From: Persicimonas caeni | Lineage (GTDB): Bacteria > Myxococcota_A > Bradymonadia > Bradymonadales > Bradymonadaceae | Length of the DNA stretch: 64,000 nt | Direction: 5' to 3' | Assembly: GCF_006517175.1 (NCBI RefSeq) | Contig: NZ_CP041186.1 | Location: 3,125,074 to 3,189,073, forward strand | Part shown: one piece after another, positions 2,781-61,860 of the stretch | Layout of the letters: every line of letters begins with the position of its first letter | Position numbering within the stretch: the stretch's first letter is position 1 | The notes under the pieces: generated by a model | Seen by the model: the letters and a program-made list of their open reading frames with translations, nothing else | What the model was told of the DNA's origin: nothing | The model's database searches: none | Position numbers and translations under genes: made by a program

Positions 2781-3068
2781 GGGGCCTCTCCCTCGATCCC
2801 TCTCCTTCCCTTCGCTTCGCTACGGGTGGAGAGGGGGGCCTCTCCTCGGTCCTCTCCTTCCCTCCGCTTCGTTACGGGCGGAGAGGAAGATGTCGTTTAA
2901 TCGATCTCTGTACAGGGTGCGATGTTGCTCTACCGATCTCTGTACAAGGTGCGTACTGGCAACATCTTCCTCCCCTGCGCGAAGCAAAGCGTAGCGTAGG
3001 GGAGGACCGAGGAGGGGACTCCTCCTCCGCGAAGCGAAGCGAAGTGGAGGAGGACCGAGGAGGAGGAA
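2781..3068. repeat. MITE/REP-like palindromic element, family A copy 1 (~290 bp, nested inverted repeats around the ggaggaccgaggagg / cttcgcttcgctacggg cores)
   Basis: Left arms gggcctctccctcgatccctctccttcccttcgcttcgctacgggtggagagg pair with right arms cctcccctgcgcgaagcaaagcgtagcgtaggggaggaccgaggagg. The same element recurs at 3463, 9168, 38771 and 48056. Confidence 0.85.
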
Positions 3069-3462: not shown

Positions 3463-3752
3463 GGGGGGCCTCTCCCTCGATCCCTCTCTTTCCCTTCGCT
3501 TCGCTACGGGTGGAGAGGGGGCCTCTCCTCGGTCCTCTCCTTCCCTTCACTTCGTTACGGGCGGAGAGGAAGATGTCGTTTAATCGATCTCTGTACAGGG
3601 TGCGATGTTGCTCTACCGATCTCTGTACCAGGTGCGTACTGGCAACATCTTCCTCCCCTGCGCGAAGCAAAGCGGAGCGTAGGGGAGGACCGAGGAGGGG
3701 ACTCCTCCTCCGCGAAGCAAAGTGAAGTGGAGGAGGACCGAGGAGGAGGAAA
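3463..3752. repeat. MITE/REP-like palindromic element, family A copy 2
   Basis: Near-identical to 2781-3068, including the internal cgatctctgtacagggtgcg direct sub-repeats. Confidence 0.85.
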
Positions 3753-9167: not shown

Positions 9168-9386
9168 GTCGTCCTCTCCCTCGATCCCTCTCCTTCCCTT
9201 CGCTTCGCTACGGGTGGAGAGGGGGGCCTCTCCTCGGTCCTCTCCTTCCCTCCGCTTCGCTACGGGTGGAGAGGAAGACGTTGCTCTATCGATCTCTGTA
9301 CGGGGTGCGTTGAAGCAACATCTTCCTCCCCTGCGCGAAGCGAAGCGTAGCGCAGGGGAGGACCGAGGAGGACCGAGGAGGAGGAA
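9168..9386. repeat. MITE/REP-like palindromic element, family A copy 3 (shorter), inserted between flhB and fliR inside the flagellar export operon
   Basis: Same arms as copies 1 and 2 (ctccctcgatccctctccttcccttcgcttcgctacgggtggagagg ... ggaggaccgaggaggaccgaggagg). It fills the whole flhB-fliR intergenic gap. Confidence 0.85.
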
Positions 9387-30920: not shown

Positions 30921-33080
30921 ATGGACCCGATATCAGGAATGAGCGTGGCGACGATCGTGTTGGCGGCCGCCGCCGCGGTGATCATCCTCGGCGGCTTCGC
31001 CTTCGCCATCAAGTGCTATGTAAAGGTCGATCAGGGCCAGGCCTTGATCATCAACAAGACCACCAAAGAGCCGGAGGTCACCTTTACTGGCGGGTTGGTC
31101 ATCCCGGTGTTCAACCGCGCCGAGTACATGGATATCTCGCTGAAGACGGTCGAGATCGACCGGCGAGGCAAAGAGGGTCTGATATGTGCGGACAATATCC
31201 GCGCCGACATCAAGGTCACCTTCTTCGTGCGCATCAACAAGACCGCCGAAGACGTGCTCAAGGTCGCCCAGTCCGTGGGCTGCAAGCGCGCCTCCGACCA
31301 GGACAAAATCGAGGAGCTCTTCGTCTCGAAGTTCTCCGAGGCATTGAAGACCGTCGGTAAGCAGCTCGAGTTCGAGTCGCTGTACCAGGAGCGCGTGCAC
31401 TTCCGCGACAAGATCATCGAGATCATCGGCCAAGACCTCAACGGCTACGTCCTCGAAGACGCCGCCATCGACTACCTCGAGCAGACCCCGGTCGAGAACC
31501 TCGACCCGCAGAATATTCTCGACGCCCAGGGCATCCGTAAGATTACGGATCTGACCTCGGTCCAGCGGGTTCAGACCAACGAGTTCAGCAACAAAGCCAA
31601 GAAGGATATCGGCAAGGACGACCTCGAAACCAAGATGGCGCTGCTCGAGTACGAGCGCCAAGAGGCCGAGGCGACCGCCAAGCAGCAGCGCGAAATCGGC
31701 GTGGTCCAGGCGCGTGAGAAGGCCGAAGAGGCCGAAATCACCGCCAAGGAAGAGGCGCGCGCCCAGAAGGCGCACATCCAGGCGCAGCAAGAGATCGAAA
31801 TCCAGAAGATCAACAAGCAGCGCGAGGAAGAGGTCGCCCAGAAAAACCGCGAGCGCATCATCGCGGTCGAGACCGAAAACGTCGAAAAAGAGCGCCAGCT
31901 CCAGGTCATCAGCCGCGAGCGTGAGACCGAGCTGCAGCGCATCGAGAAGGACAAAGAGGTCGAGGTCGAGAAGAAGAATATCGCCGAGATCGTGCGCGAC
32001 CGCGTCTCGGTCGACAAGACGGTGGCCGAAGAGGAAGAGCGCATCCAAGACCTGCGCGTGATCGCCGACGCCGAGCGCCAAAAGAAAGCCGCGGTCATCG
32101 CCGCCGAAGGCGAGGCCGAGCAAGCGCTCGTCAAAGACATCAAAGAGGCCGAGGCCCAAGAGGCCGCCGCCAAGCACCGCGCCCAGCAGAAGGTCATCGA
32201 GGCCGAGGCCGAGCTCGACGCCAGCGAGCGCACCGCCAAGGCCAAAAAGCAGCTCGCCGAAGGTATCGAGGCCGAAGAGGCCGCCGCCGGCCTGGCCAAA
32301 GTCCGCGTCAAAGAGGCCGACGCTCAGGCCAACGAAAAGCAGGGTCTGGTCGACGCCCGCGTGCGCAAAGAGCAGCTGCTCGCAGAGGCCGCCGGCGAGG
32401 AAGAAAAGGGCATGGTGGAAATCCGCCTGACCGAAAAACGCGCCGAGGCCATCGAGAAGGAAGGCCTGGCCCAAGCCAAGGTCACCCGCGAGAAGGCCGT
32501 GGCCGAAGCCGCCGGCGACCAGGAAAAAGGCCTGGCGCAGGTGCGCATCAAAGAAGCCGAGGCCGACGCCATCCGCAAGGAAGGCATGGCCCGCGCCGAG
32601 GTCCGCGCCCAGCAGGGCGAGGCCGACGCCAAGGCCATCCAGGACAAGCTGGCCGCCGAGGCTGCCGGTCTGACCGAGAAGGCCGAGGCGATGAAGAACT
32701 TCGACAAGGAAGGCTACGAGTTCGAACGCTTCCAGATGGAGCTCGACCTGCAGCGCGAAATCAGCATGGAGCAGCTCGAGAAGTCGATCGAGATCGCCAA
32801 GGCGCAAGCCGCGGTGCTCGGAGACGCCTTCAAAGCCTCCAACATCAACATCGTGGGCGGCGACGACGCCTTCTTCGACAACTTCACCAAGTCGATCACC
32901 GTCGGCAAAATGGTCGAGGGGTTCATCGACACCAGCCCCACGGCCCGCAAGGTGCTCGACCAGGTCATGAACAAGGTCAGCAAGGACGAGGAGCCCGAGG
33001 CGCCCAAGGCGTCGGAGCCGACTGCATCGAAGGCTGACGACGTCGAAGAGGCGGTCACGGATCTGACGCCCGGAGAGTGA
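30921..33080 (+). CDS. Flotillin-like SPFH/Band-7 domain protein (YqiK/FloT-like) with very long E/A/K/Q-rich coiled-coil tail
   Basis: N-terminal TM helix, SPFH domain (KVDQGQALIINKTTKEP...VFNRAEYMDISLKTVEIDRRGKEGLICADNIRADIKVTFFVRIN) and flotillin-type EA repeats (AEAAGEEEKG.., AEAAGDQEKG..). Confidence 0.8.
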   Translation: MDPISGMSVATIVLAAAAAVIILGGFAFAIKCYVKVDQGQALIINKTTKEPEVTFTGGLVIPVFNRAEYMDISLKTVEIDRRGKEGLICADNIRADIKVTFFVRINKTAEDVLKVAQSVGCKRASDQDKIEELFVSKFSEALKTVGKQLEFESLYQERVHFRDKIIEIIGQDLNGYVLEDAAIDYLEQTPVENLDPQNILDAQGIRKITDLTSVQRVQTNEFSNKAKKDIGKDDLETKMALLEYERQEAEATAKQQREIGVVQAREKAEEAEITAKEEARAQKAHIQAQQEIEIQKINKQREEEVAQKNRERIIAVETENVEKERQLQVISRERETELQRIEKDKEVEVEKKNIAEIVRDRVSVDKTVAEEEERIQDLRVIADAERQKKAAVIAAEGEAEQALVKDIKEAEAQEAAAKHRAQQKVIEAEAELDASERTAKAKKQLAEGIEAEEAAAGLAKVRVKEADAQANEKQGLVDARVRKEQLLAEAAGEEEKGMVEIRLTEKRAEAIEKEGLAQAKVTREKAVAEAAGDQEKGLAQVRIKEAEADAIRKEGMARAEVRAQQGEADAKAIQDKLAAEAAGLTEKAEAMKNFDKEGYEFERFQMELDLQREISMEQLEKSIEIAKAQAAVLGDAFKASNINIVGGDDAFFDNFTKSITVGKMVEGFIDTSPTARKVLDQVMNKVSKDEEPEAPKASEPTASKADDVEEAVTDLTPGE

Positions 33081-33358
33081 CGTCGTTCGCGGAGCGGCTG
33101 CTTGCTGCCCGCGGAGCGCGCCCCGTTGTTTGGGGCGCCCGTGCAGCCCCGGGGCTCGCCCCGGGGGTTTGATCGACAATCACCACATGCGTTCGGCTAT
33201 GCGACGTTACGTTGTGCCGACACGTGGCGTTCAGAGTTGCCCCGAGTTCAGGAGACGCACGGTTAACCCCAAGGCAAGCCATGGGGCTGCACCGGCGAGG
33301 GCTCCGCTGGGGGCAAGCCCCCGCTCCGCATGATTCCGGCGTTCGCAGGCCATTTGCC

Positions 33359-36300
33359 ATGTCCGAAGAATCCCAAAAAGCCACCGAGACCCAAACCGAC
33401 CAACCCCAGGTCTCGTCGTCCAACTACGACATCATCCGCAAGCGCCTCGAAGACCAGGCGCGCCAGCTGCGTGAGCGCACCGACAAGCTCAACGCCGCCC
33501 GCGCCGACCTCTTCGGCGGCACCGAGATGACCGTCATCGGCCAAGAGCGCATCCGCACCGAGAACAACTGCATCCCGCAGGACATCGTCAACGTCGGCGG
33601 GCGCATGCTCTTTGGCTACAACGTGCATATCGGCCTGAAGACCAAGACCGAGGTCGACGACGTCTTCAGCCTGCACGCCTTCGACAAGTCCGACGACGGC
33701 TTCAAGCTCGAGTCGGTCGGCCAGGATTCGGACGCCAACTTTCTAAGCGACGCCAAGTTCGTCAAAGACTTCGACGAGCTGTACGCCTACTACAAAGACG
33801 CGCGCCTGCGGCAGCTCATCAAGCTCGAGGGCCGACTGCTGGGCATCTTCCAGATCGGCTCGACCCTCGAGGACCGCCGCGTGCTTCGCTGGGGCTTGGA
33901 CGCCCAGGAAAACGTCGAGTACATCGACAACGCCGGCGACCGCGACCTCAAGGCGCCCGACACCCACGACTTCCAGTGGCAGGGCGTCACCCGCGACGAT
34001 CACGTCAAGGGCAAGCACCCGCATATCAGCATCCTCGACGAGGTCTTCGTCGAGACCGTCGGCGGCGACCTGACCATCAAGATCGAGGACAACACCGACG
34101 ACGGCAAAGGCATCTACAGCGAGCCTGTGGAGGACCTGCACCAGTCGCTGGGCGACGGGGAGTTTTTCTGGGCCAAGATCGGCAACCTGATCTTGCTCAA
34201 GATCTTGCCGTACCGCGAGGAGGCGTGGCGCTACTTCGTCTACAACACGCTCACCCAAAAGGTGGAGCGCCTCGACGCCATCGGCCAGTCGTGCATCCGG
34301 CTGCCCGAAGACCAGGGCGTCATCTTCCCGGGCGGCTTCGTCTTGTCGAACGGCCAATCGAAGCGCTTCGACGCCACCGTCGAAGGCCTTCGCATCCACC
34401 AGGTCATCCGCTCGGCCAACGGTGAGGACGTCCTGTACGTCTTCTATCATCCCAAAGAGGGCGACTACCTACTGCTGGCCTACAACGTCATCCGCAAGGA
34501 CGTCCAAAACCCGATCAACTGCCACGGCTACTCGCTGTTCGACGACGGCACGATGATCGTGTTCCGGTTCATGGGCGACGAGCCCACGCGCATCCATCCG
34601 ATGCAGATCTGGCAGACGCCGTTTATCTCGGATGAGCACGCCGCCCAGCAGCCCAAAGACGACTCGCTGCTGAGCAATATCGGCAACGCCGAGCTGGTGC
34701 GCGGCATCTCCGACGCCTACAGCCTCTGCTCGATGGTCGGCGACCTCGAGCCGTCGATGCCGGTGTACGAGGCGCTCATCGCCACCGCCCAGAAGCTGCT
34801 CGACGCCTACTTCTGGCTCGACAAGGACGAGGCGCAAAACCTCGCCGAGGTCGCCACAGAGATCATCTCGACCGCCGAGCTCGTCATCGACGAGTTCCAG
34901 AAGGTCACCGCCCTCAAAAAGCGCGCCAAAGAGGCCCTCGAAGAGGCCGAGGCCAAGCAGCGCTCGCTCTTCACCGACGTGCGCTACCACGATTGGAACC
35001 GCATCGAGCGCTTCGTCGAGGGCCTCGACAAGCTCCGAAAGCAGCGCGGTCATCTGATCACGCTCAAGGAGATGCGCTACATCAAAGTCAGCCGCCTCGA
35101 CGAGCTCGAGGCCGAGGTCAGCGAGCGCTACGACGACCTGAGCCGGGCGACCGTCGACTTTTTGCTCCAAGACGAGGCGCTTCGCACGTATCAAGAGGGC
35201 CTCGACGAGCTCGACGCCACTGTCGAAAACCTCGAGAACACCAAGCAAGCCGCCGAGCTCGAAAAGAAGCTCGACGAGATCAACAAAGGCCTGAACCTGT
35301 TGACCGAGGTCATCAGCGGCCTGCAGATCGACGACCCCACTAAACGCACGAAAATACTGGAGAATATCGGCGAGGTCCTCAGTCGCCAGAACCGCGCCCG
35401 CGCCCGGCTCGAGCGCAACACCAAGGAGCTGCAGGAAAAAGAGGGCAAGGCCGAATTCGCCGTCCAATTCCAGCTCTTCAGCCAGAGCGTGACCAGCGCG
35501 CTGGGCATGTGCGACACGCCTGAAGCGTGCGACGAGCAGCTCACGCGTTTGATGGTCCAGCTCGAGGAGCTCGAGAGCCGCTTTAGCTCCTTCGACGGCT
35601 ATCTGGGCCGCCTCGCCGAGAAGCGCGAAGAGGTCTACGAGGTCTTCGAATCGCGCAAGCAAGCCTTGCTCGAGGAGCGCCAGCGCAAGGCGAACAACAT
35701 CGCCAGGAGCGCCGACCGCATCCTCAAGGGCGTGGTGCGCCGCGCGTCGAACATGAAGTCGGTCGACGACCTGAACGCCTACTTCGCCTCCGACGCCATG
35801 GTCATGAAGGTGCGCGACCTGGTGACCAAGCTTCGCGAGCTCGAAGAGGACGTCAAAGCCGACGACATCACCACCCAGCTCAAGGCCGCCAAAGACAAAG
35901 CGGTGCGCCAGCTCCGCGACAAGCTCGACCTGTTCGAAGGTGGCGACAACGTCATCAAGTTCGGCCAGCACCGCTTCAGCGTGAACACCCAGTCGCCCGA
36001 GATGACGATGGTGCCGCGCGAGGTCGACGGCGAGCCGCGCATGGCGCTGCACATCACGGGCACCGACTTCTTCGAGATCATCGACGACGAGGAGTTCAAC
36101 AAAACCCGGCGCTTCTGGGACCAGCACCTCATCTCGGAGACCGACACCGTCTACCGCGGCGAGTACTTGGCCGCCTCGATTCTCTTCGACGCCGAAGCGG
36201 GCGAAAACGAGCTGACGGTCGCCGAGTTGCAGCGCCGCAAAAAGTCCGAGAAGGGCCTGCAGCCGCTCATCCGCGAGTACATGAACGAGCGCTACGACGA

Positions 36301-38749
36301 GGGCTACGAGCGCGGCGTCCACGACGAGGACACCGCTAAAATTCTCGGAGCGTTCTTGGGCATGTACGCCACCGCCGGCCTGCTGCGCTTTACGCCGCGC
36401 GCCCGGGCGCTGGCGACGATGTTCTGGACGTTCGCCGAGCAACCCGACCGGCGCAAGAACTGGGGCCGAAGAGGCGTGAGCCTCGGGCGTCTGCGCGAGA
36501 TCTTCGAGCACGGCAAGCCGCTCGAGGCATTGGGCGAAGAGCTCGCCCAAGAGATAGAAGCGTTCGCCGCCACCTTCGGTGCGGGGGCATCCCTGCCCTC
36601 GCCGCGAGAGCTAGAAGCACTCGCACCGAAAAAGGGCCTCTGCCGCGAAGCCGGACGCTACCTCGCCGAAGAGCTCGTCGACACCAACCCCCGCTTCGTC
36701 GAATCGAGCGAAGCGGTCGCCCTGCGCGACAAGTTCTTCAACTATCTCGACCAAAAGCACACTCGCCTCGACTTCGACGAGGACTTGAAGCAACTCCAAG
36801 GCAACCTCGCCGCGCGCTGGGAGCTCGTCATCGCCTGGCTCACGGGCTTCGCCGACAGCCAGCTCGACGACGACATGTCGCACCTGATCCCCGAGGTCGC
36901 CGCGCTGATCTTGACCGACGGCACCCTCGAGCGGCAGACCGCGCAGGCGCGCACCACCGCCGAAGTCACCGACCTTCTGGGCGACCACCCGCGCATCGAC
37001 GGCGGCGCGCTCGAGCTTCGCCTCGACGAGTTTTTGACCCGGCTTCGCCGCTATATCGACGAGCACGTCCCCGCCTACAAGGAGTACAAAAAGCTCAGCC
37101 GCGACTTGCTCGAGCGCGAGCGCCGGCGCCTTCGCGTCGACAGCCTCGAGCCGCAGGTCTTCAGCGGATTCGTGCGCAACCGCCTCATCGACGAGGTCTA
37201 CCTGCCGCTCATCGGCGACAACCTCGCCAAGCAGATGGGCACCGTCGGCGAGGACAGCCGCTCGGACCGAAGCGGCCTGCTCCTGCTCATCTCGCCGCCC
37301 GGCTACGGCAAGACGACCTTGATGGAGTATATCGCCGACCGCCTCGGCCTGATGTTCATGAAGATCAACGCACCCAGCCTGGGTCACGACGTCACCTCGC
37401 TCGACCCCGACGAGGCGCCCAACGCCACCGCGCGAAACGAGGTCGAAAAGATCAACCTCGCCCTCGAGATGGGCAACAACGTGATGCTCTATCTCGACGA
37501 TATCCAGCACACCCACCCCGAATTCTTGCAGAAATTCATCTCGCTATGCGACGCCACCCGCCGCATCGAGGGTGTCTGGAACGGACGCACCAAGACCTAC
37601 GACCTTCGCGGCAAGCGCTTCTCGGTGGTCATGGCCGGTAACCCGTACACCGAGTCGGGCGAGCGCTTCACGATCCCCGACATGCTCGCCAACCGCGCCG
37701 ACACCTACAACCTGGGCGACATCCTCAGCGGCAAGCAGGACGCCTTCGAGATGAGCTATATCGAAAACGCGCTCACCTCGAACAAGGTCACCGCCCCGCT
37801 CGTCACCCGCGAGCGCCAAGACATCATGCGCTTCATGAAGATGGTCGACGGCCAGCAAATCCCGCTGACCGAGTTCGACCACGCCTACTCGTCAGTGGAG
37901 GCCGGCGAGATCGTCAACGTGCTCGAAAAGCTGGTGCAAATCCGCGACGTGGTGCTCAAGGTCAACCAGCAGTACATCATCTCGGCGGGCAAAAAGGACG
38001 AGTACCGCACCGAGCCGCCCTTCCAGCTGCAGGGCAGCTACCGCAACATGGGCCGCATGACCGAGAAGGTCGCCTCGGCGATGAACGACCGCGAGGTCCA
38101 AGAGATCATCGACAACCACTACAACCAGGAATCCCAGACGCTCACCACCGGCTCCGAGCAAAACCTGCTCAAGCTCGCCGAGCTTCGTGGCACCTTGACC
38201 GAGGAGCAAAAAGAGCGTTGGGAAGAGATCAAACGCGAGTACAAACGCCGCAAGATGATGGGCGGCGACGACGACCCCGTCAGCCGCGTCGCCGGCCCCC
38301 TGGCCACGCTCGTCCAACGCCTCGAAGACGTCCACACCGCCCTGCAGACCGACACGGTCTCCGGCGAGCTGGGCGAAATCCGCGGGGTGCTCGAAAAGGC
38401 CGTCGATTCGGCAGCCAAAGCCACAGCCAAAAAGCCGTCGACCGTCGACCGCCCCAAGCCCAAACAACAGCAGCCGGCAGCAACCGCCCCGGCCACCGCC
38501 GAAGCCTTGTCCGAAGCCCTGCTCTCCCTGCAACAAGCCAAGCTCGAGGTCCAGGTCGTCGGCGACATGCCCTCGAAACTCGGCGAGGTCCTCGAGAGCC
38601 AACTCGGCCTCATCGAAAGCGCCATCTTGCCCTTGGCCAAATTCGTCTACCGCGAAGCCGAAGACGACAAACGCCGCGACGCCCAACTCGACGAGGTCAT
38701 GCGCAAGCTCGACGCGCTGCGCGGCACGCCCGTGCCGGAAGGCGAGTAA
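33359..38749 (+). CDS. Giant (~1796 aa) multidomain protein: N-terminal beta-rich domain, extended coiled coils, C-terminal dynein/MoxR-like (AAA_5-type) ATPase. Function unknown
   Basis: Uninterrupted ORF (track 33212-38749; start placed at MSEESQKATE). Walker A LLLISPPGYGKTTL, Walker B VMLYLDDIQH, sensor-1-like VVMAGNPYTE. About 500 aa of heptad-rich sequence between the N-terminal and ATPase domains. Co-directional with and 130 bp downstream of the flotillin gene. Confidence 0.6.
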   Translation: MSEESQKATETQTDQPQVSSSNYDIIRKRLEDQARQLRERTDKLNAARADLFGGTEMTVIGQERIRTENNCIPQDIVNVGGRMLFGYNVHIGLKTKTEVDDVFSLHAFDKSDDGFKLESVGQDSDANFLSDAKFVKDFDELYAYYKDARLRQLIKLEGRLLGIFQIGSTLEDRRVLRWGLDAQENVEYIDNAGDRDLKAPDTHDFQWQGVTRDDHVKGKHPHISILDEVFVETVGGDLTIKIEDNTDDGKGIYSEPVEDLHQSLGDGEFFWAKIGNLILLKILPYREEAWRYFVYNTLTQKVERLDAIGQSCIRLPEDQGVIFPGGFVLSNGQSKRFDATVEGLRIHQVIRSANGEDVLYVFYHPKEGDYLLLAYNVIRKDVQNPINCHGYSLFDDGTMIVFRFMGDEPTRIHPMQIWQTPFISDEHAAQQPKDDSLLSNIGNAELVRGISDAYSLCSMVGDLEPSMPVYEALIATAQKLLDAYFWLDKDEAQNLAEVATEIISTAELVIDEFQKVTALKKRAKEALEEAEAKQRSLFTDVRYHDWNRIERFVEGLDKLRKQRGHLITLKEMRYIKVSRLDELEAEVSERYDDLSRATVDFLLQDEALRTYQEGLDELDATVENLENTKQAAELEKKLDEINKGLNLLTEVISGLQIDDPTKRTKILENIGEVLSRQNRARARLERNTKELQEKEGKAEFAVQFQLFSQSVTSALGMCDTPEACDEQLTRLMVQLEELESRFSSFDGYLGRLAEKREEVYEVFESRKQALLEERQRKANNIARSADRILKGVVRRASNMKSVDDLNAYFASDAMVMKVRDLVTKLRELEEDVKADDITTQLKAAKDKAVRQLRDKLDLFEGGDNVIKFGQHRFSVNTQSPEMTMVPREVDGEPRMALHITGTDFFEIIDDEEFNKTRRFWDQHLISETDTVYRGEYLAASILFDAEAGENELTVAELQRRKKSEKGLQPLIREYMNERYDEGYERGVHDEDTAKILGAFLGMYATAGLLRFTPRARALATMFWTFAEQPDRRKNWGRRGVSLGRLREIFEHGKPLEALGEELAQEIEAFAATFGAGASLPSPRELEALAPKKGLCREAGRYLAEELVDTNPRFVESSEAVALRDKFFNYLDQKHTRLDFDEDLKQLQGNLAARWELVIAWLTGFADSQLDDDMSHLIPEVAALILTDGTLERQTAQARTTAEVTDLLGDHPRIDGGALELRLDEFLTRLRRYIDEHVPAYKEYKKLSRDLLERERRRLRVDSLEPQVFSGFVRNRLIDEVYLPLIGDNLAKQMGTVGEDSRSDRSGLLLLISPPGYGKTTLMEYIADRLGLMFMKINAPSLGHDVTSLDPDEAPNATARNEVEKINLALEMGNNVMLYLDDIQHTHPEFLQKFISLCDATRRIEGVWNGRTKTYDLRGKRFSVVMAGNPYTESGERFTIPDMLANRADTYNLGDILSGKQDAFEMSYIENALTSNKVTAPLVTRERQDIMRFMKMVDGQQIPLTEFDHAYSSVEAGEIVNVLEKLVQIRDVVLKVNQQYIISAGKKDEYRTEPPFQLQGSYRNMGRMTEKVASAMNDREVQEIIDNHYNQESQTLTTGSEQNLLKLAELRGTLTEEQKERWEEIKREYKRRKMMGGDDDPVSRVAGPLATLVQRLEDVHTALQTDTVSGELGEIRGVLEKAVDSAAKATAKKPSTVDRPKPKQQQPAATAPATAEALSEALLSLQQAKLEVQVVGDMPSKLGEVLESQLGLIESAILPLAKFVYREAEDDKRRDAQLDEVMRKLDALRGTPVPEGE

Positions 38750-38770
38750 CCCAATCGGTCAATTGTTCGA

Positions 38771-38980
38771 CATCTTCCTCCCCCGCGTAGCGAGGGGAGG
38801 ACCGAGGAGGGGCGTCCCTTTCCATGTAGCGAAGCGAAATGGAGAGGGATTCAGGGAGAGGCCCCTACTACAATCGCCCGCAAGCAATCCGCCCCCCGCT
38901 ACGGGCAACGCACGTCGGCTACGCCTCCGTGCTCGCCCGCAGCTAAAAGTTCGTATCACCCACAAGGGGTTCGAGGACGA
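38771..38980. repeat. Composite repeat: half of a family-A element (catcttcctcccc...ggaggaccgaggagg) followed by a family-B element (ccgctacgggcaacg...ctcgcccgcagctaaaagttcgtatcacccacaaggggttcgagg)
   Basis: Sequence identity to 48056-48265 and to the B copies at 39285 and 39455. Confidence 0.8.
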
Positions 38981-39096
38981 GAAGCGGCTTCGTGGTTAGC
39001 AACCGCCGGGAAGCAACCCATTGGAACGAGCGTCGATCGTTGCTAGAATCCGAGTAGGCGCCCACACTTGGGCTGTGAGCATAGGAGGTGCTTCAA

Positions 39097-39395
39097 TGCC
39101 GCGTACCGAAATCAAAGAGCAAGCCCACAAACTTGTCGATGAACTACCAGACGACGCGACTTGGGAGGACCTCGAGTACAAGATCTATGTGCGTCGCAAG
39201 ATAGAGCGTGGCCTCGAGAGTATCGAGAAGGGAGAGACCGTGAGTACCGATGAGGTACGCGCACGCTTCGGACTGGATAAGAGAAGCTACGGGCAACGCA
39301 CGTCGGCTACGCCTCCGTGCTCGCCCGCAGCTAAAAGTTCCGTATCACCCACAAGGGGTTCGAGGTTGGAGTCCTGGCAGGAGAATGCATTTTGA
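39097..39395 (+). CDS. Small antitoxin-like/addiction-module-like protein (about 60-aa native core; C-terminal about 36 aa read through a repeat element)
   Basis: AGGAGG 7 nt upstream of ATG. The core MPRTEIKEQAHKLVDELPDDATWEDLEYKIYVRRKIERGLESIEKGETVSTDEVRARFGLDK resembles small antitoxin-type proteins. The reading frame then continues into the family-B repeat copy. Confidence 0.4.
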
Positions 39396-39542
39396 GCCGT
39401 CCGGAGCCTGTTGCTCAATTGTCTCGAACGGGCCGTTTGGGCAGGACCGACGATCGTGGAACCCCTTGTGGGTGCAAAAGAATTTGTAGCTGCGGGCGAG
39501 CGAGGCGTCCCGAAGGGCGCCGAGAGTTGCCCGTAGCGGGGT
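39285..39542. repeat. Family-B repeat pair in inverted orientation (39285-39366 direct, 39455-39542 inverted) forming a long hairpin with about 90-nt spacer
   Basis: cccacaaggggttcgagg ... cctcgaaccccttgtggg arms and the agctacgggcaacg.../...cgttgcccgtagc outer arms. Confidence 0.8.
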
Positions 39543-39560
39543 TTGTCCTTGCCTTCCACC

Positions 39561-40916
39561 TCACGGCACCGTCGCCTGCCCGCTGCTATCACTGCCCCAA
39601 CAATGGGTCGTCCCATTGTCATCCACCCCGCAGGTATGCCACCGCCCCGCGTCGATGGACGTGAACACGACCGTCGTAGGCGGCGTCGATTGCCCGTAGG
39701 AGTCTTGCCCCCAACACTCGACCTGCCCAAAACCGTCGAGCACGCAGGTGTGGTTCCACCCCGACGAGATCTGCTCGTAGCCAGCCCCCGCTGGCGCGTC
39801 GCTCACCTCGCCGGCGTCGTCTTTGCCCCAGCAATTGACTTCGCCGCCCGTCGTCAGCGCGCACGTAAAGCTCTGGCCGACGCTGACCTGCGCGAAGCTG
39901 CCCTGGCGCACCTGGGCCTGGCCGTGGTCGCTGCGTCCCCAGCACCATAGCTCGTTCGACTCTTTGATCCCGCAGGTATGATGCGGCCCGGCGGCGATCT
40001 GCAAAAACTCGCCCGTCGGCGCCGAGGCCTTGCCGTCGTCGGTATTGCCCCAGCATTCGACCCGCCCGTCGACGCCGATCGCGCAGGCGTGCCGGCTGGC
40101 CGCGCTCACCTGCACGTACTCGCCGCCCAGCGGCGTCGCCATGCCGTCGGTGTCCGCGCCCCAGCACTGCAACTCGTGAGACATATCGATACCGCAGGTG
40201 TGCAGGCCCCCGGCGCTCACGTCGATGAAGCTCGCCTGCGGCGGCGTCGCCTGACCGGCGTTATCCGCGCCCCAGCACCGAACGGAGCCGCCGGCGGCGA
40301 TCTCGCAGGTGTGGTTGCCGCCGGCGCTCACCTGCGTGTCGATGCAGCTCGCGGTCGTGCTCGGCATCCAGTCCGACGAGACGGACGACGGAAGGCACAA
40401 CAGACACGCATCGTCGCTCTTGGCCTCGCCGCTCGAAAAACACGTGCCGTCGATCAGACACGCGTCCGCATTCACGCTGCCCTGCTGGCACTGCCCCAGA
40501 TCGTCGCACGTCCCCTCCCCGGTGCAGCTCAGCCCGTCATCGCAGCTCGCGCCGGGGGTCACGCGCTCCACGCAATTGCCGCGCAGACACACGTTCTCCA
40601 TGCACGGCGTGTCGATGGGCGCACACTCGACGTCCGCGCACAGGTCGGCCGCGTCCGCCTCTCCCGTATCCTCGTCGCCTGCATCCTCCCGGCCTCCATC
40701 CGGAGCGACGGTGCTGTCCTCCTCGACGTCACTCGACGCATCCTGGGGCTGCTCGGCGTCGCCGGCATCAGACACCCCCGCGTCGGCCGTGCCGTTCGGC
40801 TCGGGGTCGTCCGAACAGCCGCCCGTCGCCAGCACGGTCGCCAGCGCGACGAACAAAACAACCACCACACGACGGGATGCGGGCACGCGCCCCCGGGACA
40901 TCGAGTCTGACTTCAT
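39561..40916 (-). CDS. Secreted lipoprotein with RCC1/BLIP-II beta-propeller repeats and an N-terminal Cys-rich (EGF-like) module
   Basis: Signal peptide plus lipobox (VLFVALATVLATGGCSD). A D/E-rich linker, then a Cys-rich segment. Seven or more repeats of the CWGxxxxGQ / HTCG(I/L) type (SAGGLHTCGID, VSAASRHACAIG, IAAGPHHTCGIK...). Confidence 0.75.
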   Translation of the reverse strand: MKSDSMSRGRVPASRRVVVVLFVALATVLATGGCSDDPEPNGTADAGVSDAGDAEQPQDASSDVEEDSTVAPDGGREDAGDEDTGEADAADLCADVECAPIDTPCMENVCLRGNCVERVTPGASCDDGLSCTGEGTCDDLGQCQQGSVNADACLIDGTCFSSGEAKSDDACLLCLPSSVSSDWMPSTTASCIDTQVSAGGNHTCEIAAGGSVRCWGADNAGQATPPQASFIDVSAGGLHTCGIDMSHELQCWGADTDGMATPLGGEYVQVSAASRHACAIGVDGRVECWGNTDDGKASAPTGEFLQIAAGPHHTCGIKESNELWCWGRSDHGQAQVRQGSFAQVSVGQSFTCALTTGGEVNCWGKDDAGEVSDAPAGAGYEQISSGWNHTCVLDGFGQVECWGQDSYGQSTPPTTVVFTSIDAGRWHTCGVDDNGTTHCWGSDSSGQATVP

Positions 40917-41080
40917 ACAACTTCTCTCCAAAAGCATCGTCTTGATCAGGCGCCGTATCGCACTCTACAGACTTACCTTGCGGGCGCGTTTGCAAGCAAC
41001 CTGCGAGCACTGCTCACCGCAGTTGCCCAACCGGCCTCCCTTGGGGCACACTCGCCCAGCAAAACGTTTCTCCAGATTCG

Positions 41081-48010: not shown

Positions 48011-48055
48011 TCACACAAACGAGCCCCCATCTTGCCCGGAGACACCGCGCCAAGG

Positions 48056-48265
48056 CAACATCTTCCTCCCCTGCGCGAAGCACAGCGGAGCGTAGGGGAG
48101 GACCGAGGAGGGGACTCCTCCTCCGCGAAGCAACGCGAAGTGGAGGAGGACCGAGGAGGAGGCCGGGCTCCATAATCGAACCCCGCTACGGGCAACGCTC
48201 GACTCCCTCCGGTCGCCTCGCTCGCCCGCAGCTACAAGTTCCGTTTCACCCACAAGGGGTTCGAG
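48056..48265. repeat. Composite repeat: family-A half-element + family-B element (second copy of the 38771-38980 arrangement)
   Basis: caacatcttcctcccctgcgcgaagca...ggaggaccgaggagg followed by ccgctacgggcaacgctcg...cccgcagctacaagttccgtttcacccacaaggggttcgagg. Confidence 0.8.
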
Positions 48266-48504
48266 GCTGTCGGCCCCGCAAGAAATCACGTCCCGCGCCG
48301 GTCGAAGCCAGACGCACAAGCGCCCAGGACCGCCGCACCTACAGGGCCGGAGGTTGTGGTGGATGAGCCGGTCGGGCCGGTCGAGCCGGTTGGGGTGTAG
48401 GACTCCCAGCCAGGTTGACCGGCCCCCGGGGCGGCCTACGCCGCCCGGCCCCCCGCCGCTCATTGAGCACACATAAATCCGTGTACTGGCCAAGAGGCCA
48501 ACTC

Positions 48505-48969: not shown

Positions 48970-49968
48970 ATGGCCGCCATGAAATACGCCATCACACTCG
49001 TCATACTCGCCGCCGGTCTCACCCTCGCCACAGGTTGCGGCTCCGATGCCGACTCCACGCAGCAGAACACGGGCGACGCCGGCCAATCCGATACAACTCA
49101 GACCGATACAAACCAGCCTGACACGAATCAGCAGGACGCAGGCGGCGACGCGGCGCTCGCGCCGCCGTGGGATGCGAGCGCGCCGTTGGGCGGCGACCGT
49201 CCGGCGCGGGTGATCTTGCCCAACGCCTACGACCGCACGCAGAGCTGGCCGCTGGTCGTGTTGCTGCACGGGTACACGGCCACCGGGCCGCTGCAGGATG
49301 CCTATTTCGGGTTGAGCCGGCGTGGCGACGAGCGTGGGTTTATCACCGTGCTGCCCAACGGGACGCAGGACGGGGCGGGCAACCGGTTTTGGAACGCGAC
49401 CGACGCGTGCTGCAACTTCGGGGGGAGCAGCGTCGACGACGTGCAGTACCTGAGTGACCTGCTCGCCGAGGCCAAAGAGCGCCTGGCGGTCGACGCCGAC
49501 CGGGTCTACTTCATGGGGCACTCCAACGGCGGGTTCATGAGCTACCGGATGGCCTGCGAGCTCGGCTCCGAGATCGCGGCCATCGCCAGCCTGGCGGGCA
49601 GCGCGTTCGACGACGCGCAGGATTGCGCCGAGAACGGGCAGGTGGGCGTGCTGCAGATCCACGGCGACGCCGACGAGACCGTGCTGTACGACGGCGGCCA
49701 ATTCGCCGGCAACGCCTACCCCGGCGCGCGCGAGGTCGCCGAGCGCTGGGCGGCCAGAAACGGCTGCGACGCCCAGGCGCAGACCGGCGAGGCGGCCGAT
49801 CTCGACAAGGATGTCGACGGCGCCGAGAGCGATATCGAGCAGTGGGGTGGGTGCGAGGCCGACCGGCGCGTGGAGCTGTGGAGCATCCGCGGCGGCGGGC
49901 ATATCCCGAGCCTGAGCGACGATTTTACCGACCGGGTGCTCGACTTTTTGTTCGCGCACAGCCGATGA
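48970..49968 (+). CDS. Secreted alpha/beta-hydrolase, PHB-depolymerase-type esterase lipoprotein
   Basis: Signal plus lipobox (ITLVILAAGLTLATGCGSD), T/Q/D-rich linker, nucleophile elbow GHSNGG and the esterase core VVLLHGY...FMGHSNGGFMSY. Confidence 0.75.
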   Translation: MAAMKYAITLVILAAGLTLATGCGSDADSTQQNTGDAGQSDTTQTDTNQPDTNQQDAGGDAALAPPWDASAPLGGDRPARVILPNAYDRTQSWPLVVLLHGYTATGPLQDAYFGLSRRGDERGFITVLPNGTQDGAGNRFWNATDACCNFGGSSVDDVQYLSDLLAEAKERLAVDADRVYFMGHSNGGFMSYRMACELGSEIAAIASLAGSAFDDAQDCAENGQVGVLQIHGDADETVLYDGGQFAGNAYPGAREVAERWAARNGCDAQAQTGEAADLDKDVDGAESDIEQWGGCEADRRVELWSIRGGGHIPSLSDDFTDRVLDFLFAHSR

Positions 49969-49977
49969 GGAGCGAAA

Positions 49978-50170
49978 AAGCTAACGAGCGAAGCAGGGAA
50001 TGAGCGAAGAAGGGAATGAGCGAAGAAGGGAATGAGCGAAGAAGGGAATGAGCGAAGAAGTGAATGAGCGAAGAAGGGAATGAGCGAAAAAGAGAATGAG
50101 CAGAACAGGTAATGAGCGAAAAAAGGAATGAGCGAAAAAGGGAATGAGCAGAACAGGTAACGAGCAAAAA
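49978..50170. repeat. Tandem array of about 12 copies of a 16-bp unit (gaatgagcgaagaagg) with 3' degeneration
   Basis: Directly visible perfect copies, then diverged copies (gaatgagcgaaaaaga, gaatgagcagaacagg). Confidence 0.9.
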
Positions 50171-50303
50171 AGGCGCGCAAATTCTGCCTACGCGGCGCGC
50201 TGACGAAAATATTGCCTACCTCGAACGGCGCTGGAGACCTCTCTAGCGCCGTTTTTCGTGGCACACGCCTTGCATCGCCTTTCTACGGTTTAAATCCACC
50301 CCG

Positions 50304-53254: not shown

Positions 53255-53545
53255 AGCTTGGAGGCAGCGCATCTTGCGCTGGGTGCATTGGCGCGCGCTC
53301 CTGCTACCAGCGCTGGAAGCGCTGCCTCCAAACGGCGCCGTAGAGCTTGGAGGCAGCGCATCTTGCGCTGGGTGCATTGGCGCGCGCTCCTGCTACCAGC
53401 GCTGGAAGCGCTGCCTCCGAACGGCGCTGGAAGCGCTGCCTCCAAACAGCGCCGTAGAGCTTGGAGGCAGCGCATTTTGCGCTGGTTGCATTGGCGCGCG
53501 CTCCTGCTACCAGCGCTGGAAGCGCTGCCTCCAAACGGCGGCGAC
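53247..53545. repeat. Tandem array of 3 copies of a about 92-114-bp palindromic unit (family D; gtagagcttggaggcagcgcatcttgcgctgggtgcattggcgcgcgctcctgctaccagcgctggaagcgctgcctccaaacggcgcc)
   Basis: Three consecutive near-identical copies. Each unit is itself an inverted repeat (ggaggcagcgc ... gcgctgcctcc). A related single unit lies at 55690-55775. Confidence 0.9.
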
Positions 53546-55689: not shown

Positions 55690-55775
55690 TCGCCATAGTT
55701 TGGAGGCAGCGCTTCTAGCGCTGGTTGCATGAGCGTACGGGCTTGCAACCAGGGCAAGATGCCCGGCCTCCAAAG
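55690..55775. repeat. Family-D single unit (gtttggaggcagcgcttctagcgctggttgcatgagcgtacgggcttgcaaccagggcaagatgcccggcctccaaa)
   Basis: Shares the ggaggcagcgc core with the 53247 array and the gggcaagatgccc motif with family C. Confidence 0.7.
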
Positions 55776-59654: not shown

Positions 59655-59905
59655 CTTTCGGTGCGAGTGCATCCCTGCTCTCGCTCACGAGGGCGAGATG
59701 CCCACGCACCGAACACTTCGCGCGCTATCGGTGCGAGTGCTTCCAGCTCTCGCGTTTTGTTTGTAGTCACAGCTTTCCGTCGCCCCCCATCCGCCCTTCG
59801 CTTCGCTACGGGCACCTTCCCCCCGGGGGAAGGGATGCCCTCGCCGCATTGTGGCGTGGTCGGTTGTTGGGGGAGATTCTGCGTGGCGTTGTTATTCTAC
59901 GACCG
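59655..59905. repeat. Family-C repeat, left copy (about 250 bp; contains gagggcgagatgcccacgcaccgaa sub-repeats and the cttcgcttcgctacgggcaccttccccccgggggaagggatgcc palindrome)
   Basis: An inverted, more than 85 % identical copy lies at 61595-61860. Confidence 0.85.
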
Positions 59906-61594: not shown

Positions 61595-61860
61595 GAGACT
61601 ATCAGCCGCCCAAGTCGCCACAAGCGAAAAAAACTACACCCCCAACAACCGACCACGCCACAACGCGCTAAGGCATCCCTTCCCCTGGGGGAAGGTGCCC
61701 GTAGCGAAGCGAAGGGCGGATGGGGGGCGACGGAAAGCTGTGACTACAAACAAAACGCGAGGGCAAGATGCCCCCGCACCGAACACATCACGAGGGCAAG
61801 ATGCCCACGCACCGAATCCACAGCGCCGCGAATTTACACGATCCCCCGTCTGTGTCATCA
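61595..61860. repeat. Family-C repeat, right copy (inverted relative to 59655-59905)
   Basis: Its reverse complement aligns with the left copy through gcgttttgtttgtagtcacagctttccgtcgccccccatccgcccttcgcttcgctacgggcaccttcccc...gggaagggatgcc...ttgtggcgtggtcggttgttggggg. Confidence 0.85.

What the first reader, a model, noticed from the sequence alone, without database searches (positions are those of the whole stretch)
38771..39542. Small antitoxin-like gene embedded between repeat copies, with its C-terminus read from a repeat
A 60-aa ORF with a strong AGGAGG RBS and antitoxin-like sequence (…DELPDDATWEDLEYKIYVRRKIERGLESIEKGETVSTDEVRARFGL) has a family-A/B composite repeat directly upstream and a family-B copy directly downstream. 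The downstream copy begins within the last codons, so the ORF continues for 36 residues of repeat-encoded sequence. About 90 nt further on an inverted B copy forms a long hairpin. No cognate toxin gene is adjacent. This looks like an orphan antitoxin or regulator captured or truncated by repeat insertion, or a small gene mobilised by the repeats.
Basis: partly seen in the sequence, partly recalled or inferred. Interest (0 to 1): 0.55.

Follow-up and report, generated by a model that had tools for sequence, protein, structure and literature searches.

The report
Orphan ParE antitoxin fused to repeat
This is the surviving antitoxin half of a ParE-type toxin-antitoxin pair: the toxin gene was deleted up to a dispersed repeat and the stop codon was lost, so the small gene now reads 36 extra codons into repeat and spacer DNA, which is ordinary gene-pair decay caught at single-base resolution.

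Summary
A 99-aa ORF (39096-39395, +) has a conserved promoter and an AGGAGG ribosome-binding site. It sits between two near-identical direct copies of an ~85-nt repeat (B1, B2). A third, inverted copy (B3) pairs with B2 in a long hairpin (-150.6 kcal/mol, z -8.4).

The first 63 codons belong to a large family with no Pfam model, whose members are typically 62-64 aa (3869 cluster representatives). In 51 of 63 genome loci, clear ParE_toxin (PF05016) homology follows immediately; where that toxin gene is intact, it overlaps the small gene by 4 nt. So the gene is a ParE-partner antitoxin.

The window has no toxin homology anywhere. The two closest relatives carry the intact pair beside the same DUF3686 ATPase gene, but in the opposite orientation.

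At the junction, GAAGCTACG matches the first bases of the toxin ORF in relatives (GTGAAGCTACG). Its GCTACG is also the 5' end of B2, which lacks the CCCC seen in the other copies. This indicates a microhomology-mediated deletion of the toxin. A separate 3-nt loss removed the overlapping stop and start codons (TGA/GTG). The 36-residue tail is predicted disordered.

Verdict: an orphan antitoxin from a decaying toxin-antitoxin locus. It is a known kind of thing and of low-to-moderate interest.

The parts
33212..38749 (+). Upstream neighbour: 1845-aa DUF3686 / DUF7902 / AAA ATPase gene. It serves as the synteny anchor.
   Evidence: Pfam PF12458 at E 1e-204. It is 87.6% nt identical to L001 and 81.5% to L004, and there it lies convergent with the toxin-antitoxin pair.
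38773..38870 (+). Family A repeat: two tandem hairpins (CTTCCTCCCC..GGGGAGGACCGAGGAGG, then CCCTTTCCAT..ATGGAGAGGG) just after the ATPase stop codon.
   Evidence: Copies at 2785-3068, 3468-3751, 9173-9381 and 48054-48162. Fold.
38895..38979 (+). B1: upstream copy of the ~85-nt family B repeat.
   Evidence: nhmmer E 1.8e-23 and alignment. A diverged B-like element lies at the same relative position in L001 865-936.
39021..39049 (+). Sigma-70-type promoter TTGGAA-17-TAGAAT with an extended TG.
   Evidence: It is the only promoter-like site in 38600-39700; shuffles give a mean of 0.2. TTGGAAC and TAGAAT are invariant in L001 and L004.
39083..39088 (+). AGGAGG ribosome-binding site, 7 nt before the ATG.
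   Evidence: Read directly from the sequence. AGGAGGT is conserved in L004 and is AGAGGT in L001.
39096..39284 (+). Antitoxin core, codons 1-63, homologous to the 62-64-aa family.
   Evidence: 87% aa identity to P0001. dN/dS is 0.045 against L001. The AF2 model has three helices and pLDDT 86.9.
39283..39291 (+). GAAGCTACG: the relic of the toxin ORF's first bases (GTGAAGCTACG in L002 and L006). The 3-nt gap that removed the overlapping TGA stop and GTG start lies between 39282 and 39283. GCTACG (39286-39291) is shared with the B 5' end and is the deletion junction.
   Evidence: Alignments. B2 lacks the CCCC that precedes GCTACG in B1, B3 and B4.
39285..39395 (+). Read-through tail, residues 64-99 plus the stop. 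Residues 64-91 come from B2 and 92-99 from the spacer.
   Evidence: The tail has no homologue among 33 relatives. AF2 gives pLDDT 50-55 and no secondary structure.
39286..39368 (+). B2: downstream direct copy of B, 98.75% identical to B1 and 5'-truncated by 4 nt.
39369..39453 (.). Unique spacer that forms the loop region of the B2/B3 hairpin. It holds the ORF's stop codon.
   Evidence: It has no other copy in the window and no similarity to relatives.
39454..39544 (-). B3: inverted copy of B, ending 17 nt beyond the stop of the convergent RCC1-repeat gene.
   Evidence: nhmmer E 2.8e-23. Inverted-repeat pair I18. Hairpin with B2 at -150.6 kcal/mol, z -8.4.
39561..40937 (-). Downstream neighbour: convergent 458-aa RCC1-repeat protein gene.
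   Evidence: Pfam RCC1_2 at E 1e-48, 7 repeats.

Best explanation
This locus is the remnant of a type II toxin-antitoxin operon: a 63-aa antitoxin followed by a ~98-aa ParE/RelE-superfamily toxin. It once sat next to the 3' end of the DUF3686 ATPase gene.

Two lesions are visible.
1. A deletion joined toxin base ~11 to the 5' edge of a dispersed ~85-nt palindromic repeat (B2), through the shared hexamer GCTACG. This removed the whole toxin ORF.
2. A 3-nt loss at the AAGTGAAG overlap destroyed both the antitoxin's TGA stop and the toxin's GTG start.

As a result the antitoxin frame continues for 36 codons through B2 and into the spacer. The antitoxin segment is also inverted relative to the ATPase gene compared with relatives. 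The inverted B copies that flank it (B1 and B3) are the obvious substrates for that inversion; this step is inferred.

The gene keeps its conserved promoter, its ribosome-binding site and an intact core. It is probably still transcribed and translated into a three-helix toxin-binding protein with a disordered tail (inferred, not shown). Its mRNA would end in or be processed at the ~80-bp B2/B3 hairpin, which also closes the convergent RCC1-repeat gene.

Because a toxin-antitoxin pair can only be lost safely toxin-first, an orphan antitoxin is the expected intermediate of decay. Any remaining role would be neutralising incoming ParE toxins. That role is speculative.
For: Family and partner
- 33 homologues, mostly 62-64 aa, all end near ...GL(D/S/P)xx*.
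- An exhaustive profile search finds 3869 cluster representatives at E <= 1e-3 and 980 at E <= 1e-10.
- The gene directly downstream is ParE_toxin PF05016 in L001, L002, L003 and L004, and in 10 of 10 sampled loci from diverse phyla (60.9-76.8 bits against a cut-off of 23).
- Of 63 genome loci, 36 have an intact-like toxin, 15 a partial or fragmented toxin at >= 50 bits, 3 a faint remnant, and 9 nothing.
- The C-terminal motif IERGLxxxxxGxxxSxxEVRxRFGL matches the toxin-binding C-termini of solved RelB and ParD antitoxins: 9g12_C at E 0.0026 and 6xrw_B at E 0.032. It also hits NCBIfam RelB/ParD models at E 0.0016-0.011. The same two PDB entries are the top Foldseek hits, though not significantly.

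Loss of the toxin here
- No toxin homology anywhere in the window.
- Window ...GGACTGGATAAGA---GAAGCTACGGGCAAC aligns with L002 ...GGACTGGACAAAAAGTGAAGCTACGCTGGAG. L001, L004 and L006 align the same way.
- B1, B3 and B4 start CCCCGCTACGGGCAAC, while B2 starts at GCTACG.

Synteny and inversion
- The ATPase gene matches L001 and L004 on the opposite strand. The antitoxin matches them on the same strand.

Integrity of the surviving gene
- Promoter TTGGAA-17-TAGAAT is conserved.
- dN/dS is 0.045 against L001.
- The AF2 core model has pLDDT 86.9 and three helices. The tail has pLDDT 50-55 and no secondary structure.

Hairpin
-.

Background
- Orphan antitoxins are common. A survey of Klebsiella pneumoniae found a median of nine per strain (PMC7192599).
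Against: - Only 64 kb of the genome is visible, so a partner toxin could be encoded elsewhere.
- The relic of the toxin start rests on 9 nt, of which 6 are also repeat sequence. Only GAA is uniquely toxin-derived. The exact breakpoint and the 3-nt deletion are therefore the most parsimonious reading, not proven.
- The closest relative is only 87% aa / 77% nt identical. No near-identical genome with an intact pair was available to show the state before the deletion.
- Low dN/dS reflects the whole divergence, not the time since the toxin was lost. B1 and B2 are 98.75% identical, which suggests the rearrangement is recent. An intact core therefore does not prove selection on the orphan.
- Expression, toxin neutralisation and the role of the hairpin are all untested.
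- The similarity to RelB/ParD is below curated thresholds.
Confidence: 0.85

Rival explanations
1. The 99-aa protein is a functional new gene. In this reading the repeat-encoded tail has been recruited, for example as a degron, a localisation signal or an interaction tail, and the fusion is maintained by selection.
For: The frame stays open for 36 codons, and the core, promoter and ribosome-binding site are intact. C-terminally extended family members exist in databases (P0008, P0065, P0071, P0135, P0136, P0163).
Against: - The tail has no homologue in any of the 33 relatives.
- It is predicted disordered.
- The exact 99-aa product is not on record in any public assembly.
- In 58-65% GC DNA, an open frame of 36 codons is not unusual (my estimate is about 0.3 by chance).
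- The extended database variants have unrelated tails or are frameshift fusions to ParE.
- B1/B2 near-identity suggests a recent event.
Confidence: 0.05
2. The gene was never paired with a toxin at this site. Instead, a stand-alone small regulator bracketed by direct B copies (B1 .. gene .. B2, 388-nt period) was moved here as a repeat-flanked cassette.
For: Near-identical direct repeats bracket the promoter and gene. The segment is inverted relative to relatives. JGI names two family members 'predicted transcriptional regulator'.
Against: - Two relatives have the intact antitoxin-ParE pair at the same ATPase-adjacent site.
- L001 also has a B-like element upstream of the promoter, so B-promoter-antitoxin appears ancestral.
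- The 9 nt after the core match the toxin start of relatives.
- There is no second copy in the window.
- There is no target-site duplication around B units.
Confidence: 0.05
3. The locus is a dead relic. The antitoxin is no longer expressed or is non-functional, for example because the mRNA is cleaved in the 80-bp B2/B3 duplex to give a non-stop message. It is intact only because the event is recent.
For: B1/B2 are 98.75% identical, so the event is recent. The stop codon lies inside the loop of a very stable hairpin. Toxin and pair decay is frequent in this family: 27 of 63 loci lack an intact-like toxin.
Against: The promoter, ribosome-binding site and all 63 codons are intact. Nothing in the sequence shows inactivation. 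This is a sub-case of the best explanation, differing only in present-day function, and it cannot be separated from it by sequence alone.
Confidence: 0.3

Closest known systems
ParD / RelB-type antitoxins of ParE/RelE-superfamily toxins (solved examples: P. aeruginosa chromosomal ParDE, 6XRW; M. tuberculosis RelBE1, 9G12)
   Same: A small acidic protein encoded immediately upstream of, and overlapping, a PF05016 toxin gene. Its C-terminal helix-turn-helix motif aligns with the C-terminal ends of these antitoxins. Those ends are the toxin-binding parts, from my knowledge of ParD/RelB structures.
   Different: - It is only 62-64 aa and all-helical in the AF2 model, with no N-terminal beta-strand or ribbon-helix-helix DNA-binding domain.
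- Scores are far below curated family cut-offs: 16-19 bits against 50-60.
- It has no Pfam model.
- In this window the toxin partner is absent.
PaaA2, the 63-aa antitoxin of ParE2 in E. coli O157:H7 (recalled from memory, not tested)
   Same: A short helical antitoxin of a ParE toxin that lacks its own DNA-binding domain. L001 happens to have an HTH_3 gene upstream, which recalls the paaR2-paaA2-parE2 gene order.
   Different: The profile search against PDB sequences detected no similarity at E <= 10. L002 and L004 have no HTH gene upstream. This is an analogy only.
Orphan antitoxins and 'anti-addiction' modules
   Same: An antitoxin gene retained without its toxin, at the site of the original pair. 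Such orphans are abundant in bacterial genomes, and the survey authors proposed decaying pairs or anti-addiction genes as explanations (PMC7192599). In this family 9-12 of 63 loci also lack the toxin.
   Different: Here the lesion is resolved to the base, and the orphan has also lost its stop codon and gained a repeat-encoded tail.
REP / BIME / REPIN-type extragenic palindromic repeats, and MITEs
   Same: The B units are ~85-nt, intergenic and dispersed. They have a conserved stem (GCT.CGGGC / GCCCG.AGC) around a variable inner hairpin. They occur singly and as an inverted doublet (B2/B3), like REPINs. They sit at gene 3' ends.
   Different: - The units are longer than classical REPs.
- No RAYT or transposase gene was looked for or seen.
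- There is no target-site duplication.
- Only 4 copies are visible.
- No match in Rfam or in JGI metagenomes.
- The only relative is one diverged copy in L001.

Membership tests
Type II antitoxin partnered with a ParE/RelE-superfamily toxin | Homologues are encoded immediately upstream of, and co-oriented with, a toxin gene of the family | tested here: met
   PF05016 gene with a 4-nt overlap in L001-L004. 51 of 63 genome loci have toxin homology at >= 50 bits directly downstream. 10 of 10 sampled toxins are above the Pfam cut-off.
Type II antitoxin partnered with a ParE/RelE-superfamily toxin | A cognate toxin gene is adjacent in this window (a complete module) | tested here: not met
   No hit to the toxin HMM at E <= 1 in six-frame translations of all 64 kb. 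tblastn gave a best E of 0.26, elsewhere in the window. Only 9 nt of the toxin start remain. The gene is therefore an orphan, not a module.
Type II antitoxin partnered with a ParE/RelE-superfamily toxin | The protein binds and neutralises the toxin | not testable with these tools
   This needs a co-expression or binding assay. The only support is the weak similarity to toxin-binding C-termini.
ParD / RelB antitoxin families (NCBIfam NF050811, NF048017) | Score at or above the curated family cut-off | tested here: not met
   15.9-18.6 bits against cut-offs of 60 and 50. Only the last ~27 residues match.
ParD / RelB antitoxin families | N-terminal ribbon-helix-helix (or equivalent) DNA-binding domain | tested here: not met
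   The AF2 model (pLDDT 86.9) is three helices, at residues 3-16, 23-44 and 51-57, with no beta-strand. No Pfam domain was found.
REP / REPIN-type repeats (family B) | Short palindromic units dispersed in intergenic DNA, also found as inverted doublets | tested here: met
   Four copies, all outside the clear genes, plus one inverted doublet. The stem is conserved.
REP / REPIN-type repeats (family B) | Associated RAYT (IS200/IS605-like) transposase in the genome, and many copies genome-wide | not tested
   Only 64 kb is available, and the source genome was not found in the collections.
MITE | Terminal inverted repeats flanked by a target-site duplication | tested here: inconclusive
   B2 and B3 could be read as 80-nt terminal inverted repeats of a 259-nt element. 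However, the flanks (AAGAGAA / GGGGTTTG) show no duplication, B also occurs as single units, and the left end is truncated by the deletion.

The most novel reading that the evidence does not exclude
The orphan is not debris but a domesticated immunity gene.
- B-type repeats recurrently strip toxins out of toxin-antitoxin modules by microhomology deletion and inversion.
- This leaves promoter-bearing antitoxins that protect the host against ParE toxins carried on incoming plasmids or phages.
- The ~80-bp B2/B3 RNA duplex and the disordered repeat-encoded tail would then set the antitoxin's level, through RNase III cleavage and proteolysis.

A related reading is that the 62-aa family is a distinct, uncurated class of ParE antitoxins that lack a DNA-binding domain.
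Probability: 0.07. Interest if true: 0.5.

Novelty: new member of a known kind. Interest (0 to 1): 0.25.

Why it matters
This locus is a clean, base-level example of how a toxin-antitoxin pair decays.
- The toxin goes first, here through a 6-nt microhomology with a dispersed repeat.
- The overlapping stop and start codons are destroyed in the same small region.
- The surviving antitoxin becomes a chimeric ORF that gene callers will mis-size and leave unnamed.

Two practical points follow.
1. The 62-64-aa family that precedes ParE toxins is large (about 3900 clusters at 50% identity) yet has no Pfam model and only sub-threshold NCBIfam hits. A profile for it would name thousands of 'hypothetical proteins'.
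2. The lineage-specific A and B repeats shape gene ends and local rearrangements in this genome.

None of this changes what is understood about toxin-antitoxin biology.

Tried and rejected
- **Pfam, PHROGs and PADLOC on the ORF.** Pfam and PADLOC gave nothing; PHROGs gave one hit at E 0.035, to an antitoxin family.
- **Toxin remnants.** tblastn with four toxins and an HMM of 33 toxins, run against the six-frame window, found none.
- **Source genome.** The exact 99-aa product is not on record. The genome-contig scan returned no identical locus; the best were 84% and 78% identical.
- **Family B in metagenomes.** The first pattern gave 0 hits. The second gave one hit (L068), which proved to be a chance match inside a Gly/Tyr-rich coding region. 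B could therefore not be traced beyond this window and one diverged copy in L001.
- **Rfam.** Nothing at gathering thresholds across the window. At E <= 1 on 38700-39600, only a far sub-threshold MIR820 hit, which reflects the long hairpin, and a whalefall-1 hit.
- **B as a structured RNA.** Consensus folding gives a conserved stem, but only 2 pairs with compensatory change among 5 sequences. This is too little to call it an RNA gene.
- **PaaA2 relationship.** Not detected by the profile search against the PDB. Kept only as an analogy from memory.
- **Paralogues of the antitoxin in the window.** None found.
- **Assembly artefact.** I considered this. A misjoin inside B could change what lies to the right of B2. 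It could not create the unique antitoxin-to-B2 junction, so the absence of the toxin directly after the antitoxin stands.

Full report
**1. What is in the sequence**

The region lies between two convergent genes. The left one is a 1845-aa DUF3686/DUF7902/AAA ATPase gene (33212-38749, +). The right one is a 458-aa RCC1-repeat gene (39561-40937, -).

From left to right, the 811-nt gap holds these elements:
- a family A repeat made of two tandem hairpins (about 38773-38870);
- B1, a copy of an ~85-nt family B repeat (38895-38979, +);
- a promoter-like site, TTGGAA-17-TAGAAT, with an extended TG (39021-39049). It is the only such site in 38600-39700, where shuffles give a mean of 0.2;
- AGGAGG at 39083-39088;
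- an ATG at 39096 that opens a 99-codon frame ending with TGA at 39393-39395;
- B2 (39286-39368, +);
- an 85-nt unique spacer;
- B3 (39454-39544, -), which ends 17 nt beyond the RCC1-repeat gene's stop.

A fourth B copy lies at 48178-48269 and is again preceded by an A copy. B1 and B2 are 98.75% identical over 80 nt. B3 and B4 differ from them mainly in an inner hairpin.

B2 and B3 fold into one long hairpin. Its energy is -150.6 kcal/mol against -104.8 +/- 5.4 for shuffles (z -8.4).

The ORF is 99 aa, not 60. Of the 36 extra residues, 28 come from B2 and the last 8 from the spacer.

**2. The ORF core is a real, conserved gene**

A search of about 5.8 billion proteins returned 33 relatives. 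The best is 87% identical, and almost all are 61-66 aa, ending ...FGL(D/S/P)xx.

An exhaustive profile search found 3869 cluster representatives at E <= 1e-3 and 980 at E <= 1e-10. The family has no Pfam hit, and no source gives it an informative name.

Against the closest orthologue (L001), dN is 0.061 and dS is 1.36, so dN/dS is 0.045. The promoter hexamers are invariant in L001 and L004, and the Shine-Dalgarno is closely similar (AGGAGGT in L004, AGAGGT in L001).

AlphaFold2 with the family alignment gives a confident three-helix protein. Mean pLDDT is 86.9, with helices at residues 3-16, 23-44 and 51-57.

**3. It is the antitoxin of a ParE-type toxin**

In L001, L002, L003 and L004 the next gene overlaps by 4 nt (GTGA) and is a 98-99-aa ParE_toxin, PF05016. 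In L004 the two are fused by a frameshift (P0019).

I scanned 63 loci from species-representative genomes across Myxococcota/Bradymonadales, Dehalococcoidia, Planctomycetota, Gammaproteobacteria and others. The scan used an HMM built from 33 downstream ORFs. The results were:

| Toxin state directly downstream | Loci |
|---|---|
| Intact-like toxin | 36 |
| Partial or fragmented toxin, >= 50 bits | 15 |
| Faint remnant | 3 |
| Nothing | 9 |

Ten sampled downstream ORFs all passed Pfam's PF05016 cut-off, at 60.9-76.8 bits against 23.

The C-terminal motif of the small protein (IERGLxxxxxGxxxSxxEVRxRFGL) gives weak but consistent hits to the C-terminal ends of solved and curated antitoxins:
- RelB1 of M. 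tuberculosis, 9g12_C, E 0.0026;
- P. aeruginosa ParD, 6xrw_B, E 0.032;
- Rv2865, E 0.34;
- NCBIfam RelB/ParD models, E 0.0016-0.011, far below their cut-offs.

The same two PDB entries are the top Foldseek matches, though not significantly.

The family therefore works like a ParD/RelB-type antitoxin. It is not a member of those curated families, and it appears to lack their ribbon-helix-helix domain.

**4. The toxin is gone here, and the junction shows how**

Neither tblastn with four relatives' toxins nor the toxin HMM finds anything in the whole window.

The junction aligns as follows:

| Locus | Sequence at the junction |
|---|---|
| Window | GGACTGGATAAGA---GAAGCTACGGGCAACGC |
| L002 | GGACTGGACAAAAAGTGAAGCTACGCTGGAG |
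| L006 | ...GACGCGTGAAGCTACGTTGGAG |
| L001 | ...GACAAGAAGTGAAGGTACGCTGGAG |

Three points follow from this alignment.
1. The window still carries GAAGCTACG (39283-39291). These are the first bases of the toxin ORF (GTG AAG CTA CG.).
2. Three bases are missing exactly where the antitoxin's TGA and the toxin's GTG overlap, so both signals are destroyed.
3. From GCTACG onward the sequence is repeat B.

B1, B3 and B4 all begin CCCCGCTACGGGCAAC, but B2 lacks the CCCC. The simplest history is this: a complete B copy, or a B2-spacer-B3 doublet, lay downstream of the toxin. A deletion between the two direct GCTACG hexamers then removed the toxin ORF.

There is a caveat. Six of the nine relic bases are also repeat sequence, so the exact breakpoint is the most parsimonious reading and is not proven.

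**5. The locus has also been inverted**

The ATPase gene matches L001 (87.6% nt) and L004 (81.5% nt) on the opposite strand. The antitoxin matches them on the same strand. In both relatives the pair is convergent with the ATPase gene. Here the antitoxin is co-directional with it.

L001 also has a diverged B-like element upstream of the antitoxin promoter (865-936, E 0.001). So B-promoter-antitoxin is probably an old arrangement.

B1 (+) and B3 (-) flank the segment in inverted orientation. They are plausible recombination substrates for the flip, but this step is inference.

Beyond the pair, the flanks differ among the window, L001 and L004. The site is therefore a local rearrangement hotspot.

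**6. The tail**

Residues 64-99 (SYGQRTSATPPCSPAAKSSVSPTRGSRLESWQENAF) have no counterpart in any relative. In an AF2 model of the full ORF they have pLDDT of about 50-55 and no secondary structure.

The exact 99-aa product is not on record in public assemblies. Other family members with C-terminal extensions exist, but their tails are unrelated or are frameshift fusions to ParE. Nothing suggests that this tail is selected.

**7. How it most likely works now**

These points are shown:
- the promoter, ribosome-binding site and core are intact;
- the stop codon lies in the loop region of a very stable hairpin;
- the toxin is absent.

These points are inferred:
- the gene is probably still transcribed and translated;
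- the B2/B3 hairpin probably ends or processes both convergent transcripts, and an ~80-bp RNA duplex would be an RNase III substrate;
- the product would be a toxin-binding helical protein with a floppy tail and no cis partner.

Whether it is maintained, for example to neutralise incoming ParE toxins, or is simply young debris cannot be decided from the sequence. The near-identity of B1 and B2 argues that the event is recent, so an intact core is not evidence of selection on the orphan.

The core's GC3 (0.63) is far below that of the neighbouring ATPase gene (0.89). This is consistent with a horizontally moving module.

**8. Comparison with what is known**

Orphan antitoxins are common. A survey of Klebsiella pneumoniae found 2253 occurrences and a median of nine per strain. 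Its authors proposed decaying pairs or anti-addiction genes as explanations (PMC7192599). In this family itself, 27 of 63 loci lack an intact-like toxin.

The repeats resemble REP/REPIN or MITE-like elements. No transposase, target-site duplication or wider distribution could be shown.

**9. Verdict**

This is a decayed ParE-type toxin-antitoxin locus. What survives is an orphan antitoxin that has lost its stop codon and reads into a dispersed repeat. 'Truncated by insertion' and 'mobilised by repeats' are not supported.

It is a new member of a known kind. Interest is low to moderate (0.25). Most of the value lies in the clean microhomology junction and in exposing a large, uncurated ParE-antitoxin family.

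Noticed in passing
window 49938-50193: Tandem array of about 15 copies of a 16-nt unit (GAGCGAAGAAGGGAAT) in an apparently intergenic stretch (family D1).
   Followed up: no
window 53255-53332, 53344-53421, 53458-53535 and 55697-55774: Four copies of a 78-nt, internally palindromic repeat (AGCTTGGAGGCAGCGC...GCGCTGCCTCCAAA). Three are 97-100% identical and clustered. The fourth is 77% identical to the reference copy and lies 2.2 kb away (D7 and I2-I7). This is a third repeat family in the window.
   Followed up: no
window 59728-59833 and 61677-61782: 106-nt inverted repeats, 92% complementary, bracketing 1843 nt (I1). They could be the ends of an insertion sequence or an invertible segment.
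   Followed up: no
window 2785-3068, 3468-3751, 9173-9381, 38773-38870, 48054-48162: Family A repeats: one or two tandem hairpins with pyrimidine-rich and purine-rich arms (CTTCCTCCCC..GGGGAGGACCGAGGAGG), carrying several GGAGG motifs. An A copy is followed by a B copy at two separate sites (38773-38979 and 48054-48269), so A-B is a recurring composite.
   Followed up: partly
window 30921-38749: A 719-aa ORF with no Pfam hit is followed by the 1845-aa DUF3686/DUF7902/AAA ATPase. The same gene pair is conserved in L004. The ATPase gives a weak PADLOC hit to LmuB (26 bits). This may be an uncharacterised two-gene system.
   Followed up: no
L001 1060-1085; window 39030-39045: In L001 a perfect 10-nt palindrome, AACGATCGTT, sits between the -35 and -10 of the antitoxin promoter, which makes it a candidate operator. 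The window keeps only CGATCG, and L004 has none.
   Followed up: no
proteins P0034, P0037, P0019, P0040 (family members elsewhere): Some members of the antitoxin family are tandem duplications of the 60-aa unit in one protein (P0034, P0037). Others are frameshift fusions to the ParE toxin (P0019, P0040). The family of about 3900 clusters has no Pfam model.
   Followed up: partly
window 39096-39275 versus 33212-38749: Third-position GC of the antitoxin core is 0.63, against 0.89 in the neighbouring ATPase gene. This composition is foreign to the host genome.
   Followed up: no
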